Assembly (NCBI GenBank): GCA_038217285.1
Contig: JBBQPO010000202.1
Coordinates: 1-11,529 of the forward strand
Length of the DNA stretch: 11,529 nucleotides
Origin: Chthonomonadales bacterium
GTDB lineage: Bacteria; Armatimonadota; Chthonomonadetes; Chthonomonadales; Chthonomonadaceae
Reading direction: 5' to 3'
In this document: positions 93 through 8,508 of the stretch, piece after piece
How positions within the stretch are numbered: the first letter of the stretch is position 1
How the letters are laid out: each line of letters opens with the position of its first letter
The notes under the pieces: model-generated
Databases searched by the model: none
What the model saw: the letters and a program-made list of their open reading frames with translations, nothing else
Told to the model about the DNA's origin: nothing
Program-made: the position numbers and the translations under genes

Positions 93-665
93 TTATTTCT
101 CCCACAGTAGTTCCTGAATATGTTGCGCCATGATCGCTTCCCCACCAGCATGCTCGTATTCTAGCTCTCCTTCCCAGCGGTAACGTACGTGCCCTTTCTT
201 GTCGAGCAGATAGACCGTCGGCCAGAAATGCTGTTCCCAGCGATTCCAGTTCTCGCCTTTCTGATCGAGCAGGATCGGGTATGTGATCCCGAGGCGCTTT
301 ACCCGTCGAACGACGTTGGCCGCCACCTTCTCTTCCTCGGTTTCAGGAGTATGGATACCGAGAATCACGACACCCTTCCCAGCAAACTGCTTTTGCCATC
401 TGCCGTAACTCGGCAGGTTCCTTCGACAGTTGATTCAACCGAAGGTCCAGAACTCGATCACCGTCACTTTGCCTTTGCGGGAAGCTATCTTGATCGATCT
501 GTTCTGGGGCGTGTTGAGCCACGCACCGCCGACGAGTTCCGGGGGAACCACGTCCATCTCGACGGGTTGCTGCGCCTGGGCGGCCCCGAGCGATCCGACG
601 AGCGCGAGAGCCACGCCGAATGCTCGCAGGCTCTTCGCTGGCGAGTATGGAAATCGAAATGTCAC
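93..665 (-). CDS. Exported thioredoxin-fold redoxin (TlpA/DipZ-like), probable selenoprotein with UxxC motif (Sec at codon 77, TGA 437..435), 190 aa
   Basis: ORFs 435..710 and 93..368 are in one frame, separated only by a TGA. Readthrough gives ...KGKVTVIEFWTFG-U-INCRRNLPSYGRWQKQFAGKGVVILGIHTPE...WPTVYLLDKKGHVRYRWEGE, matching the FWTFGCINC/GIHTPE/WPT motifs of DipZ-like redoxins. GTG start at 665 has AAGGAG 7 nt upstream. The N-terminus is signal-peptide-like (AFGVALALVGSLGAAQA). Confidence 0.9.
385..431 (-). promoter_or_regulatory. Candidate bacterial SECIS element of the redoxin
   Basis: The mRNA 3' of UGA has an upper stem CUGCCG/CGGCAG (416..400) with loop AGUUA starting 25 nt after UGA (G at loop position 2). 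A possible lower stem is AACUGU/GCAGUU. Confidence 0.7.
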
Positions 666-749
666 CTCTTCTCTCCTTCTCCGGTTGTTCCAGGACACCG
701 CCTTCGGCACAGAGGGACGGCCGTCTCCGCCAGTCCCGAGACTATCTCG

Positions 750-2692: not shown

Positions 2693-3577
2693 ATGGCAGA
2701 AACAGTCAAGCTTACGGATAGAAACGATGTACGCGATCTGGTACGCGAAAAGTACGGTGCAGCGGCCCTGACGGTCTTGAACGGCGAAGGCGCGGCGTGC
2801 TGTGGCGGCAATACGGGAGGCGGCAACGATGCGTGCTGTGGCGGCGACACTATCACAGGCGGTCTGTATGACGATGTAGAAGCCGCAAGCATCCCCGAGG
2901 CGGCGCTGCTGGCCTCCCTCGGATGCGGCAATCCTACAGCGCTGGCAGCGCTCAAGGGGGGCGAAGTCGTGCTCGATCTCGGTAGCGGGGGCGGTATCGA
3001 CGTGCTGCTCTCGGCAAGGCGGGTGGGCCCCACCGGATTTGCCTATGGTCTGGATATGACCGATGCCATGCTCGCGCTCGCCGAAAAGAACAAAGCGGAA
3101 AGCGGCGCGAAGAATGTGGCGTTCCTGAAAGGGCATATCGAAGAGGTACCCCTTCCCGACAACGCGGTCGATGTCATTATCTCCAACTGCGTGATCAACC
3201 TCTCTGCCGACAAAGACGCCGTCCTGCGCGAAGCCTTCCGCGTCCTGAAACCCGGCGGACGGTTTGCCGTCTCGGATGTGGTCGTGGAGGGGGAGCTTCC
3301 TCCGGCCGTGCGTGCCGATATGGAGGCTTATGTCGGCTGCGTGGCCGGTGCGCTGGAAGTGAACGACTATCTCGCCCGGCTCGCCAGGGCCGGCTTTGTA
3401 GACGCCTCGATCGAGCCGACCCGCCGCTATACCTTCGCAGACCTGGAAGAAGCAACCTGCTGCTCTCCCGAGGTGGCCGCACTGCCTGCGGAGGAAAAAG
3501 CCGCGCTCGATGGCCGCGTTATGGGAGCTTTCATCCGTGCCGTGAAGCCGGCGGCCTCCTGCTGCGAGCCGGCGTGA
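2693..3577 (+). CDS. arsM: Arsenite S-adenosylmethionine methyltransferase (Cys type)
   Basis: Contains SLGCGNP, VLDLGSGGGID, ISNCVINL, VLKPGGRFAVSD and YVGCVAGA, the canonical ArsM Cys motifs. RBS GGGAG. Confidence 0.95.
   Translation: MAETVKLTDRNDVRDLVREKYGAAALTVLNGEGAACCGGNTGGGNDACCGGDTITGGLYDDVEAASIPEAALLASLGCGNPTALAALKGGEVVLDLGSGGGIDVLLSARRVGPTGFAYGLDMTDAMLALAEKNKAESGAKNVAFLKGHIEEVPLPDNAVDVIISNCVINLSADKDAVLREAFRVLKPGGRFAVSDVVVEGELPPAVRADMEAYVGCVAGALEVNDYLARLARAGFVDASIEPTRRYTFADLEEATCCSPEVAALPAEEKAALDGRVMGAFIRAVKPAASCCEPA
2795..2845 (+). repeat. 15-bp direct repeat within arsM encoding ACCGG twice
   Basis: GCGTGCTGTGGCGGC at 2795..2809 and 2831..2845. Confidence 0.85.
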
Positions 3578-4341
3578 AGCCCTTCCTCGAAGCGAAGAGG
3601 GTTCCTGTGGACGACGGCATGATGCGCCGCTATACGGCGGAGTTTGTCGGCACATTCGGCATCGTGTTCGCTCCTGTGGCGCTCTCCGCCACAGGCAGCC
3701 TGCACGGCAGCGAAAGCGGACTGATGGCGGCCGCCTGGGTTTCTGGGCTCGCCGTGCTCGCGATGATCTACGCGCTCGGTCCTATCTCTGCGGCCCATTT
3801 CAACCCGGCCGTGACTCTGGGTTTCGCGCTCGCGGGGCGGTTCCCGTGGCGCTACGTTGTGCCCTACTGGATCGCGGAGTTCCTCGGCGGCATCGCTGCA
3901 GCGGCCCTGGCAGCCCTGCTCTTCGGCGGTGGGCATGGGGTCCATATTCCCGCCAACGGCCTGCTTGTTCGCGCCGTGGCGGTCGAGGCCGTGCTGACCT
4001 TCTTCCTGATGCTGGTCGTCATCGCGGTTGCGACCGATAAGCGGGCGAACGGCGCGATCCCCGGTCTCGCCATCGGGCTCACCGTCGTCTTCGACGTCCT
4101 GATCGGCGGTCCGGTCACGGGCGGCTCGATGAACCCGGCGCGCTCCCTTGGCCCCGCCCTTTTCGGCGGCCCAGCCGCGCTTGCCGTCTACTGGGTCTAC
4201 GTCGTCGGTCCTGTCCTGGGAGCGGTAGTGGCAGCCTGGCTCTACGAGCACATTCGTGGCGGCGAGCACCACGCACAGGGCGCGCCAAACGACATTTACG
4301 CAGCGCTGCAAGAGATCGAAGAGAAGGCCCACGAGGCGTAA
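3574..4341 (+). CDS. MIP family aquaporin/aquaglyceroporin, probable arsenical channel
   Basis: AEFVGTF, AHFNPAVT and GGSMNPARS (two NPA motifs) with hydrophobic helices. GTGA overlap with the arsM stop; the start could instead be 3607 or 3619. Confidence 0.93.
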   Translation: MKPFLEAKRVPVDDGMMRRYTAEFVGTFGIVFAPVALSATGSLHGSESGLMAAAWVSGLAVLAMIYALGPISAAHFNPAVTLGFALAGRFPWRYVVPYWIAEFLGGIAAAALAALLFGGGHGVHIPANGLLVRAVAVEAVLTFFLMLVVIAVATDKRANGAIPGLAIGLTVVFDVLIGGPVTGGSMNPARSLGPALFGGPAALAVYWVYVVGPVLGAVVAAWLYEHIRGGEHHAQGAPNDIYAALQEIEEKAHEA

Positions 4342-4374: not shown

Positions 4375-4829
4375 ATGGCAACACGCATCGCCATTTTTTC
4401 GGACATCCACGCCAACCTACCTGCCATGGAGGTTACAGCCCGGCATATTCAGCAGGGCGGCTATGACGGCGTCTACTGTCTCGGCGATGTGGGCGGATAC
4501 GCGGCGCAACCAAACGAGGTTCAACAGCTCCTTATGGGAATGGGCTGCCCGACCGTGATGGGCAACTACGACGAAAGCGTTGGGTTCGAGAAAGACGACT
4601 GTGGCTGCCTCTACATCAAGCCCTTCGACATCGAGATGAGCAATATCTCGTTTCTCTGGACCCGCGCGCAGGCTACTGTGTCCTGACGCTCGACGGTCAG
4701 AATGTCAGCGCCGAGCAGGTCCGCCTGCCCTACCCGGTTGAGACCGCCTGCGAACGCCTGCTCGCGGCCGGCCTTCCCACCTACTTCGCCGACTATCTCC
4801 GAAAAGCCGGCAACGTTACACCAGCCTGA
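4375..4829 (+). pseudogene. Calcineurin-like metallophosphoesterase with internal deletion and frameshift
   Basis: The N-terminal part (4375..4670) has SDIHAN, CLGDVGGY and MGNYD. A different frame at 4659..4829 reads DPRAGYCVLTLDGQNVSAEQVRLPYPVETACERLLAAGLPTYFADYLRKAGNVTPA*, the typical family C-terminus. The middle HGSP, GHTH and GSVG motifs are missing. Confidence 0.85.
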
Positions 4830-4951: not shown

Positions 4952-6739
4952 CTACGGAACGCGGGGGACGGAGAGATACGTCGTGTAACTTTCGGCCTTC
5001 ACCTTGTAGAACGGCAGAAAGGTCATCGTATTATGGTGCGTGTGGAACGTAGGAAGCCCGCCGGGGTGCTTTACAACGTCCACACCAGCTTTGCCTCCAG
5101 GAACCGAAACAGGCTTGTCGGAGAGAGCTACCAGGAGCAGTGGCCCGTAGAGCAGCGCCTGGCGGTCCGGCGTCTCGGAGGCGATGGCCTCGGAGTGCAG
5201 CGCCATCGGGAACGTGACCTGAAGCGTATCTCCCTCGTGCCATAACCGCTCCACTTCGAGGAACGTCCCCGGCACGGCCTTTACCTGCGTGACTTTGCCT
5301 CTGATTTTAACGGTTACAGGCTTCGCTGTCCAGCCAGGGACGCGCACATGCAGCGCAAAGCGCACAGGCTTTTGGGAATGCACCGTCAGCGTCGTCGTAT
5401 CTGTCTCCGGGTAGAGCGTGGTCTGCTCGACCGTGACAGCCTGCGGCCCCTCCTTCCAGTGCACCTGCGAAGGTGTGAAGAGGTTGACGTAGAGGCCGTG
5501 CGCAGCGTGGAAATAGATGTCGAGCGGATAGTCTGCGGTGATCTGTGCATACGTCCCCGAACAGCAGGGCCAGGCCGCGCCGAAGTAGGCTTTCTTGGTT
5601 CCGGAGCGATAGTTCGAATAGTAGAAGGTCTTGCCGTCCGGCTGCATGGGAAGCGTCGCGAGCATACCGTTGAAGAGGACGCGTTCCATGTTGTCGCCGT
5701 ATTTGGCGTCTCCGGTAAACCGCAGCAGATAGCGGTCGAGGTTGACGTTGGCGTAGGAGCCGCATGGCGTCTCGAAGTGGTTGTCGACGCTCTCGATGGA
5801 TTCTGCGAGCTTCCCCTGCCCCGGTGTCACGAACCGCTCGAGTGGCCCCCATCCGCCCGAAGCGTACATCTGCGTGGTGGTAAGGAACGTCCAGGCGTTC
5901 TCTATCGCCTTGAAGTACTTTTCATCGCCTGTCACTTCATAGGCTTTGGCCGCTGACAACAGGGTGTTGACATGGCTGTAGGCGTGATGGTCCGGTGTAA
6001 ACGCATTGATGCCATTTGCGAAGGGGTCGTAGTACTCCTTGCTGTAGTCGTACTCTTTCGCCATATCGAGATACCGCGGATCTTGCGTAAGCGCATAGCA
6101 GTTGTAGAGATTTTCGGGCAGCGTGTACCATTCGTCTCGTCGGCGCGGCAGGTTCTTCACCGCCCAGTCGGTCATCTGCTTGAGAACGACGAGTCCCTCC
6201 GCATTGCCGGTCAGCGTATAAGCGTCCCGCATCCCGATGCAGTTCTTATCGTAGAGGTAGTTCGGCCACTCCCGGAAGACCTTCTCGGACGAGTAGAAAT
6301 AGCCGTCTGGCGCTAAGGTTTCGTGGAAACCGTGCACCAGTCGGGCGACCTTCTCCTTATACCGCACATCTCCCGTATTGGCGTACATCCGGGCCAGGGC
6401 GGAGACATACTGCCCGAAAGGATGCGCTCCGGCGAAGCCGTCCGGATCGTACCAACCGCCCATCGGTTTGCCGGGCGCGGGAAGTCCGGCGCGTTTGCGG
6501 AAGCCGTTGAGCAGATTGTCCTCCGACAGCGATAGAAAGAAGTCGCGCGCTTCCAGGGCCTGGGTTCCCAGAGGGCCGCCTTTCAGAGTGACGTCCTGAT
6601 AGCCAAAGGGCTGCACGAGGCCCGAAGATCGGTGTGCCTCCAGAGCGACTGCCTTCTGGGCCGGGGCGCTCTGCTGGCAGAAGAGCCCTCCAGCAAGTAC
6701 AAGCAGGGCGCAAAGTCCTACTCCAGTCAACTTCTTCAT
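4952..6739 (-). CDS. Secreted glycoside hydrolase, GH127/GH146 (beta-L-arabinofuranosidase-like, DUF1680), 595 aa
   Basis: Signal peptide, then GGW...GQYVSALA, HAYSHV, YASGG, ETPCGSY, YGDNMER.LFN, WPCCSGT, LYVNLF, QTTLYP, RVPGW and YGPLLL motifs. Confidence 0.88.
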   Translation of the reverse strand: MKKLTGVGLCALLVLAGGLFCQQSAPAQKAVALEAHRSSGLVQPFGYQDVTLKGGPLGTQALEARDFFLSLSEDNLLNGFRKRAGLPAPGKPMGGWYDPDGFAGAHPFGQYVSALARMYANTGDVRYKEKVARLVHGFHETLAPDGYFYSSEKVFREWPNYLYDKNCIGMRDAYTLTGNAEGLVVLKQMTDWAVKNLPRRRDEWYTLPENLYNCYALTQDPRYLDMAKEYDYSKEYYDPFANGINAFTPDHHAYSHVNTLLSAAKAYEVTGDEKYFKAIENAWTFLTTTQMYASGGWGPLERFVTPGQGKLAESIESVDNHFETPCGSYANVNLDRYLLRFTGDAKYGDNMERVLFNGMLATLPMQPDGKTFYYSNYRSGTKKAYFGAAWPCCSGTYAQITADYPLDIYFHAAHGLYVNLFTPSQVHWKEGPQAVTVEQTTLYPETDTTTLTVHSQKPVRFALHVRVPGWTAKPVTVKIRGKVTQVKAVPGTFLEVERLWHEGDTLQVTFPMALHSEAIASETPDRQALLYGPLLLVALSDKPVSVPGGKAGVDVVKHPGGLPTFHTHHNTMTFLPFYKVKAESYTTYLSVPRVP

Positions 6740-7494
6740 CGATTTACTCTCTTTCCGGTGGTCTTACGTGCGACCACTTCCGCAACCATTACTTTTGGGT
6801 CTGTGGTTCTGGCGTTGCGCAATGCGCGAAGCAAGACCACCTCGCCAAACCCGGCGGCCCGAAACTCCTCAAGGAAAGCCCCGCTCTCCTTTGCGCCGGC
6901 AATTCAAGTGAACCAGTCAGCCGCGCTGTTTTGGCTTTCCGCAGGCAAGGGGCCGGTCAAGACAAGCTCCGCCGCATAGACAGATCCCCCTGTTTTGAGA
7001 ACGCGCGACAACTCAGAAAATATCTGCTCCCGGTAGGGATTCAGGTTGAAAATGCCGTTGATGAGGGCGACATCAATACTCGCGTCTTTGATCGGCAACT
7101 GTTCCGCGTCTGTTAGATATACGTTGACATTCGCAGCCCGCATCTCGGCTGCGGCCAGTCGGGCGCGGCCCGCCATCTCCGCACTAAAATCGATGGCGAT
7201 CACCTTGCCCTGCTCTCCGGTGCGTCTGGCCGCAATGAGCGTGTCCAGACCTGCCCCTGCGCCCAGGTCAAGAACGGTCGCTCCTGCCGGTATCCTGGCA
7301 AAGAGACTCACATTCGAGATACCGCAAAATCCTTCTACCGATGTGGCTGGGATCGTATCGAGCAAAGTAGACGGATAGCCTAAATCCTCCGCCAGGGCCC
7401 GTCCGGTGGGAAAAGGCAAATGGCGCGCGGTCTGCTGTGCGATCGAGGAATAGACATCTCTTACTCCGTCGCGGAGTGCGGTTGTGCCGTTCAT
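6736..7494 (-). CDS. ArsM-like class I SAM methyltransferase, probable selenoprotein (Sec at codon 197, TGA 6906..6904), 252 aa
   Basis: ATG 7494 with AGGAAGG RBS. Motifs FPTGRALAEDLGY, VLDLGAGAGLD, IDFSAEM, INGIFNL and VLKTGG. After DWFT-TGA the frame continues IAGAKESGAFLEEFRAAGFGEVVLLRALRNARTTDPKVMVAEVVARKTTGKRVNR*, homologous to the ArsM segment GCVAGALEVNDYLARLARAGF. The terminal TGA overlaps the GH127 ATG (ATGA). Confidence 0.88.
6871..6891 (-). promoter_or_regulatory. Candidate bacterial SECIS element of the methyltransferase
   Basis: The mRNA hairpin AAGGAGAGC-GGG-GCUUUCCUU (9 bp, one G-U) begins after 12 nt 3' of the UGA. The G-containing apical loop is at +22..24. Confidence 0.72.
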
Positions 7495-7565
7495 AAAAAA
7501 CCTTCCTGGCTCTGTCTTGAAGGAAGGATACCGGGCCAGGGTGAATAAAGCAAATACAGATTTAT

Positions 7566-7580
7566 TTATACAGCCTATAA
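7566..7580. promoter_or_regulatory. Candidate LysR binding box (T-N11-A)
   Basis: TTATA-CAGCC-TATAA dyad in the AT-rich 96-bp gap between the divergent methyltransferase and lysR genes. Confidence 0.5.
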
Positions 7581-7590
7581 GGAAAATATT

Positions 7591-8508
7591 ATGACAGAGA
7601 AATACAACCTTTACCCGCTTCATATCTTTCAGCTCGTGGCACGGCATAGCAGCGTCACCGGCGCTGCACAGGAGCTCTGCATCAGTCAACCTGCTGTCTC
7701 GTCTCACCTTAAAGCGCTGGAAGCCAGATACAAAGAGGCGCTTTTTGAGCGGACGCCGCGCGGTATGCTGCTCACGCCTGCCGGTGCGGCGGTCGCCGAG
7801 CACGCGAGCCGCATCTTTGCGCTCCTGGAAGAGATGGAAGCAGTGGTGAACGCCACACGCGGAGAGGTCAAGGGGATTGTGACCATGGCCGCCTCCAGTA
7901 CTCCTGGCGCCTACCTTGTTCCCCGGCTCCTGCGACGCTTTCAGGACCGCTATCCCGACGTGCAAGCGACACTCCTCGTCGGAGACAGCAGGGAGGTGCT
8001 TTCCTGGCTGCGAGATTACCATGCAGCGCTCGGTGTCGTCGGCGAAACGGACATGGAAGACGGACTGATCCGGGAGGAGATCGCGCAGGATGAACTGCGA
8101 CTCATGACAGCGGCGACGGACGATCTGTGTCGGAGGGAAGAGATCAAGGCGGAGCATCTTTACGGGCGTACGCTGTTCCTGCGGGAACCCGGCTCCAGTA
8201 CACGTGCCGGGGCGCAAACGCTCCTGTATGATTGGCAGAAAGACTTTGCACGGATCGTCGAACAGCACAGCATAGAAGCCATCAAGCAACAGGTCATCGC
8301 CGGGCTAGGCGTTGCCGTTCTCTCCTCCTGGGCTACCGAACTTGAAGAAAAGGCGGGTCTGCTCTGCCCTGTCCGGGATACCCGGTTTTGGCAGAGGCGT
8401 AAGTTTTACCTGGTGCGCCGCGCGGATCGCCCACTCCTCGGCGGAGCGGCGGCGCTCTGGGACTGTCTGGCCTCCTGCCCGCGTACATCCGGTGGTAGCC
8501 CTCCCTAG
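7591..8508 (+). CDS. LysR family transcriptional regulator (CysL/YeiE-like)
   Basis: HTH SVTGAAQELCISQPAVSSHLKALE...LFER...LTPAG. The effector domain has ASSTPGAYLVP, GDS and REPGSSTR. RBS TAAGGA. Confidence 0.93.
   Translation: MTEKYNLYPLHIFQLVARHSSVTGAAQELCISQPAVSSHLKALEARYKEALFERTPRGMLLTPAGAAVAEHASRIFALLEEMEAVVNATRGEVKGIVTMAASSTPGAYLVPRLLRRFQDRYPDVQATLLVGDSREVLSWLRDYHAALGVVGETDMEDGLIREEIAQDELRLMTAATDDLCRREEIKAEHLYGRTLFLREPGSSTRAGAQTLLYDWQKDFARIVEQHSIEAIKQQVIAGLGVAVLSSWATELEEKAGLLCPVRDTRFWQRRKFYLVRRADRPLLGGAAALWDCLASCPRTSGGSPP

What the first reader, a model, noticed from the sequence alone, without database searches (positions are those of the whole stretch)
6904..7340. Sec paralog has a rewired active site compared with the Cys ArsM 3 kb away
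Seen: ArsM has SLGCGNP, SNCVINL and GCVAGA. The paralog has EGFCGISN, INGIFNL (Cys replaced by Gly) and T-U-IAGA, no vicinal CC pairs, and only one Cys. Known: ArsM binds As(III) through several thiols. Inference: a single selenolate replacing the multi-thiol site suggests a different substrate or step, such as methylation of a methylated arsenical, Sb or Se/Te/S species, or methyl transfer via Se-methyl-Sec. The two enzymes may divide labour.
Basis: partly seen in the sequence, partly recalled or inferred. Interest (0 to 1): 0.78.

Follow-up and report, generated by a model that had tools for sequence, protein, structure and literature searches.

The report
Single-selenocysteine ArsM-like methyltransferase gene
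This is a real selenocysteine-encoding gene for a methyltransferase that looks like the arsenic-methylating enzyme ArsM but keeps only one of its four metal-binding residues, so it probably handles a different substrate or step, and databases routinely cut it short at the selenocysteine codon.

Summary
The gene is real but longer than the finding's span. It runs 7494..6736 on the minus strand and encodes 252 residues, with an in-frame TGA at codon 197 (6906..6904).

**Evidence for selenocysteine:**
- All 80 related genomic loci plus the window carry TGA at this codon.
- The 55 codons after it are conserved as protein.
- A covarying hairpin that fits the bacterial SECIS model follows.
- TGA is an ordinary stop in 5 of 10 other window genes.
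- A second candidate selenoprotein gene lies at 93..710.

Cys57 does not match ArsM's GCG cysteine and is not conserved (5 of 79). The family therefore has none of ArsM's four cysteines as Cys. The Cys72 equivalent is Val/Ile, the Cys174 equivalent is Gly (79/79), and the Cys224 equivalent is Sec (79/79).

**Placement.** The model folds like ArsM, but the protein scores below every NCBIfam cut-off. In my tree it sits in a separate "Gly-type" clade, next to Cys-using relatives.

**Novelty and function.** Sec-containing "arsenite methyltransferases" (UxxG) have been in print since 2007-2008, so the kind is known. Function is untested. I favour methylation of a substrate held on the single selenolate. 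Division of labour with the neighbouring ArsM has little support: 1 of 81 loci.

The parts
6736..7494 (-). CDS of the selenoprotein methyltransferase: ATG 7494..7492, 252 sense codons, TGA stop 6738..6736
   Evidence: AGGAAGG lies 7 nt upstream of the ATG. Pfam Methyltransf_31 84.3 bits. AlphaFold2 model pLDDT 91.1.
6904..6906 (-). In-frame TGA, codon 197, read as selenocysteine; position equivalent to Cys224 of CmArsM
   Evidence: TGA at this codon in 81 of 81 sequences.
6871..6891 (-). SECIS-like hairpin AAGGAGAGC-GGG-GCUUUCCUU; 9 bp, loop GGG, 21 nt between the UGA and the loop, -11.3 kcal/mol
   Evidence: It meets the four bSECIS criteria quoted in PMC13188914 section 5. Of the pair cells, 92.3% are paired, against 50-65% when the partner is slid.
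7036..7059 (-). NGIFNLNP motif (residues 146-153); Gly147 stands where ArsM has Cys174 (SNCVINL)
   Evidence: Asn146 and Gly147 in 79/79.
7318..7326 (-). Cys57-Gly58-Ile59; Ile59 is the Cys72 equivalent and Cys57 is a non-conserved cysteine two residues upstream
   Evidence: position 57 is Cys in 5/79; position 59 is Val 74, never Cys.
7243..7275 (-). SAM-binding motif I, VLDLGAGAGLD (residues 74-84)
   Evidence: D76, G78, G80, D84 invariant in A3.
7591..8508 (+). Divergently transcribed LysR-family regulator, 96 nt from the methyltransferase start
   Evidence: The same divergent LysR occurs in L001, L002, L003, L005 and L018; the cluster is present in 7 of 81 loci.
2693..3577 (+). Canonical Cys-type ArsM, inside arsR (2288-2671) - arsM - MIP channel (3574-4341)
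93..710 (-). Second candidate selenoprotein gene of the window (TlpA/ResA-like, FWTFG-U-INC; TGA at 437..435). It bears on whether the organism decodes Sec.

Best explanation
**Shown.** The gene at 7494..6736 (-) encodes a 252-residue selenoprotein with the fold and SAM-binding motifs of ArsM/AS3MT.
- It belongs to a large, phylum-spanning family in which the only invariant (seleno)cysteine is Sec197. Sec197 sits at the position of CmArsM Cys224.
- The Cys174 position is always Gly and the Cys72 position is Val/Ile.
- A SECIS hairpin follows the UGA.
- In my tree the family lies outside canonical ArsM, inside a 'Gly-type' clade whose other branches carry Cys at the same position.

**Inferred.** It is an active SAM-dependent methyltransferase that cannot chelate As(III) with three thiolates as ArsM does.
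1. It holds its substrate by one covalent Se-X bond on Sec197, next to the SAM methyl group.
2. The lone pair of the bound atom attacks the methyl group.
3. A thiol (glutathione or thioredoxin) then attacks the selenium and releases the methylated product, leaving a selenenyl-sulfide that is reduced.

**My ranking of X:**
- a chalcogen species (selenide/perselenide, sulfane sulfur, tellurium): about 0.35;
- a methylated arsenical such as DMAs(III), which needs only one ligand: about 0.25;
- something else: the rest.

The gene is probably controlled by the divergent LysR regulator as a stress or detoxification gene.
For: **Sec decoding**
- TGA at this codon in 81/81 sequences.
- The post-TGA region is conserved as protein, with G200, A201, E210, F216 and N227 invariant in 79 rows.
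- In the DNA alignment, third-codon positions vary while first and second positions are fixed.
- The hairpin meets all four bSECIS criteria in 77/81.
- Compensatory changes: 18 cells changed on both sides against 3.6 in shuffles, 0/500 shuffles as high.
- TGA is the stop of 5 of 10 other window genes, and none of them has an in-frame TGA.
- A second UxxC candidate selenoprotein with its own hairpin lies in the window.

**Fold**
- Model pLDDT 91.1.
- Best PDB matches are CmArsM 4fr0 (TMq 0.71), CrArsM and human AS3MT.

**Site make-up:**

**Separate clade:**
- Among the best 150 representatives, 47 have Cys at both the 174 and 224 positions, and 39 of these also have the Cys72 equivalent.
- 99 have Gly at 174. 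Of these, 44 end just before position 224, 33 have Cys there, and none has Cys at the 72 position.

**Established ArsM chemistry** (PMC6138428, passages read; PMC3877260, abstract)
- All four Cys are needed for As(III) methylation.
- Cys174 and Cys224 bind MAs(III).
- DMAs(III) hangs on Cys224 alone.

**Context hints towards sulfur, selenium or thiophilic stress**
- Cys-type relatives are fused to a NifS/IscS-like desulfurase (P0148), TusA (P0170, P0159, P0211), a DsbA-like domain (P0203), MerC or MerTP (P0158, P0169, P0164) and an ArsR HTH (P0143).
- ArsR-rhodanese genes lie near 5/81 loci and metal-efflux genes near 14/81.
Against: - No activity, selenium incorporation or substrate was tested.
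- No Sec machinery or tRNA-Sec lies in the window, and there is no Rfam hit.
- The hairpin lies in coding sequence (K-E-G-G-A-F-L), so part of its conservation is protein constraint. The 86-nt fold as a whole is no better than shuffles (z = 0.74).
- Gene neighbourhoods are weakly conserved: the largest neighbour cluster occurs in 10/81 loci. I ran no background control, so the sulfur and metal themes are leads only.
- The fusions are in cousin clades, not in this family.
- SAM cannot methylate cationic metals, so the Mer and efflux context does not point to a substrate by itself.
- Glutathione could supply the missing ligands, as As(GS)2-Se-enzyme, so arsenite is not excluded.
- The tree is a 'quick' search with SH-aLRT only. 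I picked its rows by motif from the hits most like the query.
Confidence: 0.5

Rival explanations
1. It is a specialist for the last arsenic methylation. DMAs(III) released by a canonical ArsM binds to the single selenolate and is methylated to volatile trimethylarsine.
For: In the canonical cycle DMAs(III) is held by Cys224 alone and falls off (PMC6138428, passages). DMA3+ binds one cysteine (PMC3877260, abstract). Sec197 is at exactly that position. A full arsR-arsM-MIP operon lies 3 kb away in the window. JGI names many family members 'arsenite methyltransferase'.
Against: Only 1 of 81 loci has a canonical ArsM within the DNA held. No arsenic-specific gene (arsenite pump or arsenate reductase) appeared among the recurrent neighbour clusters. 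The gene has its own LysR unit on the other strand, separated from the ars operon by two unrelated genes. Genome-wide co-occurrence could not be tested.
Confidence: 0.22
2. It is an ordinary arsenite methyltransferase with the same substrate range as ArsM. Sec simply replaces Cys224, and glutathione or solvent provides the other ligands.
For: ArsM-like fold. The best NCBIfam matches are all ArsM-type models. The literature lists Sec-containing 'arsenite methyltransferase' with a UxxG motif (PMC13188914 table).
Against: 164.2 bits against the 263-bit cut-off of NF008823. Gly at the Cys174 position in 79/79 and no Cys at the Cys72 position. In CmArsM all four Cys are required for As(III), and the Cys174-Cys224 pair for MAs(III) (PMC6138428). 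A published ArsM survey keeps only sequences with at least 3 of the 4 Cys (PMC5552862 methods passage). The family is a separate clade.
Confidence: 0.1
3. Sec197 is itself the methyl acceptor (a Se-methyl-Sec relay or a single-turnover trap), or the protein is a SAM- or ligand-sensing non-enzyme.
For: A selenolate beside the SAM methyl group is a very good nucleophile (established chemistry). One cousin is fused to an ArsR DNA-binding domain (P0143).
Against: I know of no precedent in this fold. Family-wide conservation of the whole MTase core across many phyla fits a turnover enzyme. The window protein has no DNA-binding domain.
Confidence: 0.06
4. The TGA is a true stop. On this reading the product is a 196-residue truncated protein or the gene is a pseudogene, or TGA is read as Trp/Gly under another genetic code.
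For: Of the 120 database proteins listed, 117 stop at or before this point. Three JGI calls read W there, and three representatives have G at that position.
Against: The TGA is kept in 81/81 sequences across distant phyla, with conserved in-frame coding sequence behind it. A SECIS hairpin with covariation follows. Cys stands at the same column in sister clades. TGA ends 5 of 10 other window genes and also this gene itself.
Confidence: 0.03

Closest known systems
Canonical As(III) S-adenosylmethionine methyltransferase ArsM/AS3MT (CmArsM, PDB 4FR0/4FSD; the window's own ArsM at 2693..3577)
   Same: Class I SAM-methyltransferase fold: Foldseek TMq 0.71 to 4fr0, phmmer E 5e-17, 33% identity to the window's ArsM over 170 residues. 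The reactive residue sits at the Cys224 position within a (C/U)xxGA motif.
   Different: No Cys at the Cys44, Cys72 or Cys174 positions (Val/Ile and Gly instead) and Sec at 224. Below the NF008823 cut-off. Separate clade. No C-terminal domain and no vicinal CC pairs. Not in an ars operon.
Published selenoprotein family 'arsenite (S-adenosyl)methyltransferase' (Fomenko et al. 2007 as cited; Zhang & Gladyshev 2008, PMC2398784; Peng et al. 2016, PMC5029168; reviews PMC9312934 and PMC13188914)
   Same: One Sec in a UxxG motif in an ArsM-like protein (U-I-A-G here). Cys homologues are common. The family is widespread in bacteria: 39 organisms in the PMC5029168 table, and 8 Sec against 245 Cys sequences in the GOS table of PMC2398784.
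   Different: I could not obtain the representative sequence (WP_011987699.1). It is therefore unchecked whether the published family is this clade and whether it also lacks the Cys72 and Cys174 equivalents. The passages I saw say nothing on this.
NCBIfam fused selenoproteins NF041537 (ArsM/AhpD), NF041536 (ArsM/DUF2284) and NF047649 (methyltransferase/UXPK-star)
   Same: These are the best-scoring NCBIfam models for the methyltransferase part: 182.3, 160.6 and 171.6 bits. The review table lists a UxxG Sec motif for them (PMC13188914).
   Different: Scores are far below the cut-offs (510, 575, 460). The window protein has no second domain and only one Sec.
Cys-type 'Gly-type' relatives (for example P0137, P0138, P0180 with DWFRCIGGAL; P0333 of Sulfurifustis variabilis)
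   Same: Same FxG(V/A)xx, NG(I/V)xNL and W..(C/U)IxGA architecture. P0137, P0138, P0180 and P0216 are sister to the Sec family (SH-aLRT 98). They too fall below the NCBIfam ArsM cut-off.
   Different: Cys instead of Sec. Several are fused to NifS-like, TusA, MerC/MerTP, DsbA-like or ArsR domains. None has a characterised function that I could find.
Bacterial H2S/methanethiol S-methyltransferases MddH, MddM1 and MddM2 (PMC11445057, PMC12904073). This is a comparison of how it may work, not of membership.
   Same: Small cytosolic SAM methyltransferases that methylate a chalcogen nucleophile. mddH is reported next to metal transport and resistance genes (PMC11445057 passage), as are some loci here.
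   Different: They are described as UbiE/UbiG-family proteins with no Sec, and no ArsM likeness is reported.

Membership tests
Canonical ArsM/AS3MT arsenite methyltransferase | ArsM-type class I SAM-methyltransferase fold with SAM-binding motif | tested here: met
Canonical ArsM/AS3MT arsenite methyltransferase | Four conserved cysteines (CmArsM Cys44, 72, 174, 224). At least 3 of 4 are required in the survey of PMC5552862, and all four are needed for As(III) methylation (PMC6138428). | tested here: not met
   Ile59 at position 72, Gly147 at 174, Sec197 at 224, and no N-terminal Cys. This holds family-wide.
Canonical ArsM/AS3MT arsenite methyltransferase | Score above the curated cut-off of NCBIfam NF008823 | tested here: not met
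   164.2 bits against 263. The window's true ArsM scores 338.9.
Canonical ArsM/AS3MT arsenite methyltransferase | Groups with canonical ArsM in a tree | tested here: not met
   The 25 canonical rows sit on one side of a branch (96). The query lies in the other part (quick tree, rows chosen by me).
Canonical ArsM/AS3MT arsenite methyltransferase | Methylates As(III) with SAM | not testable with these tools
   Needs an enzyme assay.
Bacterial selenoprotein | In-frame UGA conserved among orthologues, with coding conservation on both sides | tested here: met
   81/81.
Bacterial selenoprotein | [quoted passage not shown] | tested here: met
   Window: 9 bp, GGG loop, 21 nt, -11.3 kcal/mol. 77/81 meet all four criteria. 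Covariation.
Bacterial selenoprotein | Homologues with Cys at the Sec position | tested here: met
   33 of the 150 best representatives are Gly-type with Cys there. The sister clade also has Cys.
Bacterial selenoprotein | Sec machinery (selA, selB, selC, selD) in the genome | not testable with these tools
   None lies in the 11.5-kb window. Indirect support comes from a second UxxC candidate at 93..710.
Published Sec 'arsenite methyltransferase' family (UxxG) | Single Sec in a UxxG motif in an ArsM-like protein | tested here: met
   U197-I-A-G200; motif as listed in the PMC13188914 table.
Published Sec 'arsenite methyltransferase' family (UxxG) | Same clade as the published representative WP_011987699.1 | not tested
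NCBIfam NF041537 / NF041536 / NF047649 fused selenoproteins | Score above cut-off and a second (AhpD, DUF2284 or UXPK-star) part with a further Sec | tested here: not met
   182.3/510, 160.6/575 and 171.6/460. Single domain and one Sec.

The most novel reading that the evidence does not exclude
The family would be an unrecognised class of selenoenzyme. It would be a SAM methyltransferase that uses one selenolate as a covalent handle (Se-Se, Se-S, Se-Te or Se-As bond) to present a chalcogen or a dialkyl-arsenic centre to SAM, and then releases the volatile methylated product by thiol attack on selenium. If so, hundreds of environmental genomes now scored as carrying a truncated methyltransferase or 'arsM' would in fact carry a selenium-dependent chalcogen or late-stage arsenic volatilisation enzyme. 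In its closest relatives this enzyme is paired or fused with a second Sec methyltransferase type.
Probability: 0.3. Interest if true: 0.8.

Novelty: new member of a known kind. Interest (0 to 1): 0.5.

Why it matters
**Annotation.**
- 117 of the 120 database relatives listed stop at or before the TGA.
- A search with the C-terminal 88 residues found only 3 proteins, one of them a TGA=W call.
- No NCBIfam model reaches its cut-off.

The family is therefore read as a 196-residue fragment almost everywhere.

**Arsenic-cycle surveys.** I count 25 of the 120 listed proteins with JGI's name 'arsenite methyltransferase'. Yet the family lacks the residues that established work holds necessary for As(III) methylation. 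Counts of arsM based on general models may be inflated by these genes.

**Enzymology.** A Sec/Cys pair at a single surviving active-site position, in a clade with Gly at the partner position, is a clean natural experiment on what the Cys224 residue can do alone.

Tried and rejected
- **Rfam and tRNA.** Rfam at gathering threshold gave 0 matches on the window. ARAGORN found 0 tRNA or tmRNA genes.
- **Whole-region fold.** Folding the 86 nt after the TGA as a whole is no better than shuffles (z = 0.74). Only the local hairpin is supported.
- **Conserved operon partner.** Among 687 neighbouring ORFs of 81 loci, the largest cluster occurs in 10 loci. GH127, the gene overlapping the stop in the window, is downstream in none of the 65 other loci scanned.
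- **Cys form or read-through annotation of this exact family.** None was found, though that tool relies on shared words.
- **Papers not reachable.** Haft & Tolstoy 2025 (mSystems) is not held under either id and was not found by phrase. Fomenko 2007 is not held, and a search for AS3MT + Fomenko + selenocysteine gave 0 papers. Their statements reach me only through the review's table and reference list.
- **Search for prior description.** Searches 'selenoprotein + arsenite methyltransferase + selenocysteine' (7 papers) and 'ArsM + selenocysteine' (13 papers) listed no paper on the active-site make-up of Sec ArsM-like proteins. That is the only basis for saying I did not find it in print.
- **MddH and MddM papers.** They gave no link to ArsM-like proteins.
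- **ESM Atlas look-up.** I did not pursue that step.
- **Model coordinates.** They are not available to scripts, so the distance from Sec197 to SAM could not be measured.
- **Collections.** Genome-wide co-occurrence with sel genes or arsM stayed unchecked.
Full report
**What is there.** On the minus strand an ORF starts at ATG 7494, with AGGAAGG 7 nt upstream. It runs in frame through a TGA at 6906..6904 (codon 197) and ends at a second TGA at 6738..6736. That stop overlaps the ATG of the next gene, a GH127 glycosidase, as ATGA. Read through, the product is 252 residues. Pfam sees only general class I methyltransferase domains (Methyltransf_31, 84.3 bits). The + strand ORF 2693..3577 is a canonical ArsM: it scores 338.9 bits on NCBIfam NF008823 against a cut-off of 263. 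It sits in an arsR-arsM-MIP channel operon.

**The one error in the observation.** BLASTP of the two window proteins (33% identity over 170 residues) and phmmer against CmArsM chains (E 5e-17) align the paralog's only cysteine, C57, with Leu and Tyr respectively. That is two residues before the GCG cysteine (CmArsM Cys72), and Ile59 lies opposite that cysteine. Gly147 (NGIFNL) lies opposite Cys174 (SNCVINL), and codon 197 lies opposite Cys224 (GCVAGA). The protein thus has none of the four ArsM cysteines as Cys, and Sec at one of them.

**Is the TGA a Sec codon?**
- A word-indexed search found 730 relatives with E <= 1e-10. Of the 120 listed, 117 cover no more than 78% of the query, meaning they end at or before this codon. 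The three that go on (P0004, P0015, P0019) read W there, as a code-4 gene call would.
- A scan of one genome per species confirmed 358 relatives, and the best 80 were kept. By record title they come from Armatimonadota/Chthonomonadales, Planctomycetota, Acidobacteriota, Chloroflexota, Methylomirabilota/Rokubacteria, Nitrospirota, Syntrophorhabdus and other 'delta proteobacteria', Binataceae and others.
- All 80 and the window have TGA inside W[FL][AST]-U-[IVL]xGA (81/81). The consensus continues in frame as IAGAKEGGAFLxEFRxAGF...RNARTKNP...AAEV to a stop about 55 codons later.
- In the 48-nt DNA alignment the first and second codon positions are fixed while third positions vary.
- A hairpin begins 13 nt after the UGA. 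In the window it is AAGGAGAGC-GGG-GCUUUCCUU, at 6891..6871. On 80 distinct sequences, 92.3% of pair cells are standard pairs, against 50-65% when the partner is slid by 1-3 columns. Eighteen cells are changed on both sides against 3.6 in shuffles, and 0 of 500 shuffles reach that.
- Against the bSECIS criteria quoted in PMC13188914 (section 5, read in full), the window's hairpin has a 9-bp stem, loop GGG, 21 nt spacing and -11.3 kcal/mol. 77 of 81 sequences meet all four criteria. The other four miss only the energy limit, by at most 1 kcal/mol.
- TGA is the normal stop of 5 of 10 other genes in the window, and none has an in-frame TGA. This excludes a changed genetic code.
- A second candidate selenoprotein lies at 93..710 (-). 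It is a TlpA/ResA-like thiol-disulfide oxidoreductase reading FWTFG-U-INC, with a 6-bp hairpin (loop AGUUA, -10.2 kcal/mol) about 24 nt after its TGA. That fits an organism that decodes Sec.
- Caveats: no Sec machinery or tRNA-Sec lies in the window, Rfam has no match, and the hairpin is inside coding sequence.

**Family anatomy.** I aligned 79 full-length sequences: the window plus 78 loci. L002 was left out because it runs on in frame into a second methyltransferase, and L037 because it has a deletion.

| Window position | ArsM equivalent | Residue in the 79 rows |
|---|---|---|
| 57 | none (two residues before Cys72) | Cys 5, Ala 50, Ser 12, Thr 11, Val 1 |
| 59 | Cys72 | Val 74, never Cys |
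| 146-147 | 147 = Cys174 | Asn-Gly 79/79 |
| 197 | Cys224 | TGA 79/79 |

The only other common cysteine is in the GxGxG SAM motif (76/79), and the window has Ala there. Sec is therefore the single invariant (seleno)cysteine.

**Fold and placement.**
- An AlphaFold2 model built on this alignment has mean pLDDT 91.1 and pTM 0.90. Its best PDB matches are CmArsM (4fr0, TMq 0.71), CrArsM and human AS3MT.
- All NCBIfam scores are below cut-off: NF041537 182.3/510, NF047649 171.6/460, NF008823 164.2/263, NF041536 160.6/575.
- A full HMMER pass over 1.84 billion representatives gave 15,879 hits at E <= 0.001.
- Of the best 150, 47 have Cys at both the 174 and 224 positions, and 39 of these also have Cys at 72. 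Another 99 have Gly at 174. Of those 99, 44 end just before 224, 33 have Cys at 224, 18 are fragments or frameshifted, and 4 carry G or R. None has Cys at 72. Four further hits do not fit either class.
- I built a 70-row tree (IQ-TREE quick search, SH-aLRT only, midpoint root). Its rows were 21 family rows, 25 canonical and 24 other Gly-type, all picked by me by motif. It puts the canonical rows on one side of a branch (96) and makes the Sec family a clade (99). Its sister (98) is a Cys-type group with DWFRCIGGAL (P0137, P0138, P0180, P0216).
- So the protein does not nest in ordinary ArsM. The Sec/Cys alternation at one column is the classic signature of a functionally critical residue.

**Context.**
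- The gene is divergent from a LysR regulator (7591..8508). The same arrangement holds in its closest relatives L001, L002, L003 and L005, and in L018. The cluster is present in 7 of 81 loci.
- Otherwise neighbours vary: an ABC exporter in 10/81, radical SAM in 8/81, ArsR-rhodanese in 5/81, and any of CusB/RND/CDF/P-type ATPase within 5 kb in 14/81.
- Single cases include MerT, MerR, ZIP, Rrf2 and HesB.
- I ran no background control, so these are leads only.
- Only the window has a canonical ArsM within the locus (1/81).
- Cys-type cousins are fused to a NifS/IscS-like desulfurase (P0148), TusA (P0170, P0159, P0211), MerC (P0158, P0169), MerTP (P0164), a DsbA-like domain (P0203) and an ArsR HTH (P0143).

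**Mechanism.** In CmArsM all four cysteines are needed for As(III) methylation. Cys174 and Cys224 hold MAs(III) and aromatic arsenicals. [quoted passage not shown] A site with only the 224 residue cannot run that cycle on As(III).

I therefore infer a methyltransferase that holds its substrate by one Se-X bond beside SAM, methylates it, and is freed by thiol attack on selenium. The sulfur-carrier fusions of the cousins and the ArsR-rhodanese neighbours make me rank a chalcogen species first (about 0.35). DMAs(III) comes second (about 0.25). Canonical As(III) methylation with glutathione supplying the other ligands is not excluded (about 0.1). None of this was tested.

**What is known.** Sec-containing 'arsenite S-adenosylmethyltransferase' appears in several sources:
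- the GOS selenoproteome table, with 8 Sec and 245 Cys sequences (PMC2398784, passages);
- a 2016 census, with 39 organisms and 41 proteins (PMC5029168, table passage);
- two reviews, which list it under 'experimentally verified', with motif UxxG, representative WP_011987699.1 and reference Fomenko 2007 (PMC9312934 and PMC13188914, table passages and reference list).

The U-I-A-G of the window fits that motif, so the kind is known. I could not fetch the representative or read Fomenko 2007 or Haft & Tolstoy 2025. It is therefore open whether the published family is this clade and whether its loss of the other cysteines has been noted. My searches listed no paper on that point. A published ArsM phylogeny kept only sequences with at least 3 of the 4 cysteines (PMC5552862, methods passage). 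That rule would exclude this family.

**Verdict.** This is a genuine, systematically mis-annotated selenoprotein gene. It is a new member of the known group of Sec-bearing ArsM-like methyltransferases, and its family-wide single-Sec site argues against canonical arsenite methylation. The suggested partnership with the nearby ArsM does not gain support. Interest is moderate.

Noticed in passing
window 93..710 (-), TGA at 437..435: Two same-frame ORFs are joined by a TGA. Together they read as one TlpA/ResA/StoA-like thiol-disulfide oxidoreductase with FWTFG-U-INC in place of CxxC. A hairpin CUGCCG-AGUUA-CGGCAG (-10.2 kcal/mol) lies about 24 nt after the TGA. This is a second candidate selenoprotein in the window. 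The NCBIfam hits are below cut-off (StoA 54.6/210, ResA 52.5/170).
   Followed up: partly
L001 3366..4151 (+); L002 about 6019..7395 (+): In the closest relative, a second and different Sec methyltransferase follows the family gene directly. It has SFAGVGN, ISNGVLNL and DLWTG-U-IAGAL. In L002 the two run on in one frame without a stop. This second type has full-length Cys forms, for example P0333 of Sulfurifustis variabilis. Several metagenome contigs appear to hold both types, because hits share the same longest-contig lengths. The window lacks this partner.
   Followed up: partly
proteins P0148, P0143, P0170, P0159, P0211, P0158, P0169, P0164, P0203, P0188, P0263: Gly-type methyltransferase domains occur fused to a NifS/IscS-like cysteine desulfurase, an ArsR HTH, TusA, MerC, MerTP, a DsbA-like thioredoxin domain and DUF2652 (the last in Sec-type proteins).
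   Followed up: partly
window 4375..4686 (+) and on to about 4950: The metallophosphoesterase ORF after the MIP gene stops after 103 residues and matches only profile positions 2-63 of 154. A stretch that may be its C-terminal part reads in another frame. This is probably a frameshifted or decayed gene.
   Followed up: no
window 7544..7566: AATAAA-N11-TTTATT inverted repeat in the 96-nt gap between the LysR gene and the methyltransferase gene. It resembles the T-N11-A box of LysR-type regulators (consensus recalled, not tested). A second repeat, CCTTCCT/AGGAAGG, lies at 7501..7527.
   Followed up: no
window 6736..6739: The methyltransferase stop (TGA) and the GH127 start (ATG) overlap as ATGA. 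GH127 carries a signal-peptide-like N-terminus. It is not downstream of the family gene in any of the 65 other loci scanned, so the pairing looks incidental.
   Followed up: partly
proteins P0129, P0121, P0147, P0260: One representative has Arg and three have Gly at the Sec column. Arg (CGA is one base from TGA) could be a real replacement. Gly may be a code-25 gene call.
   Followed up: no
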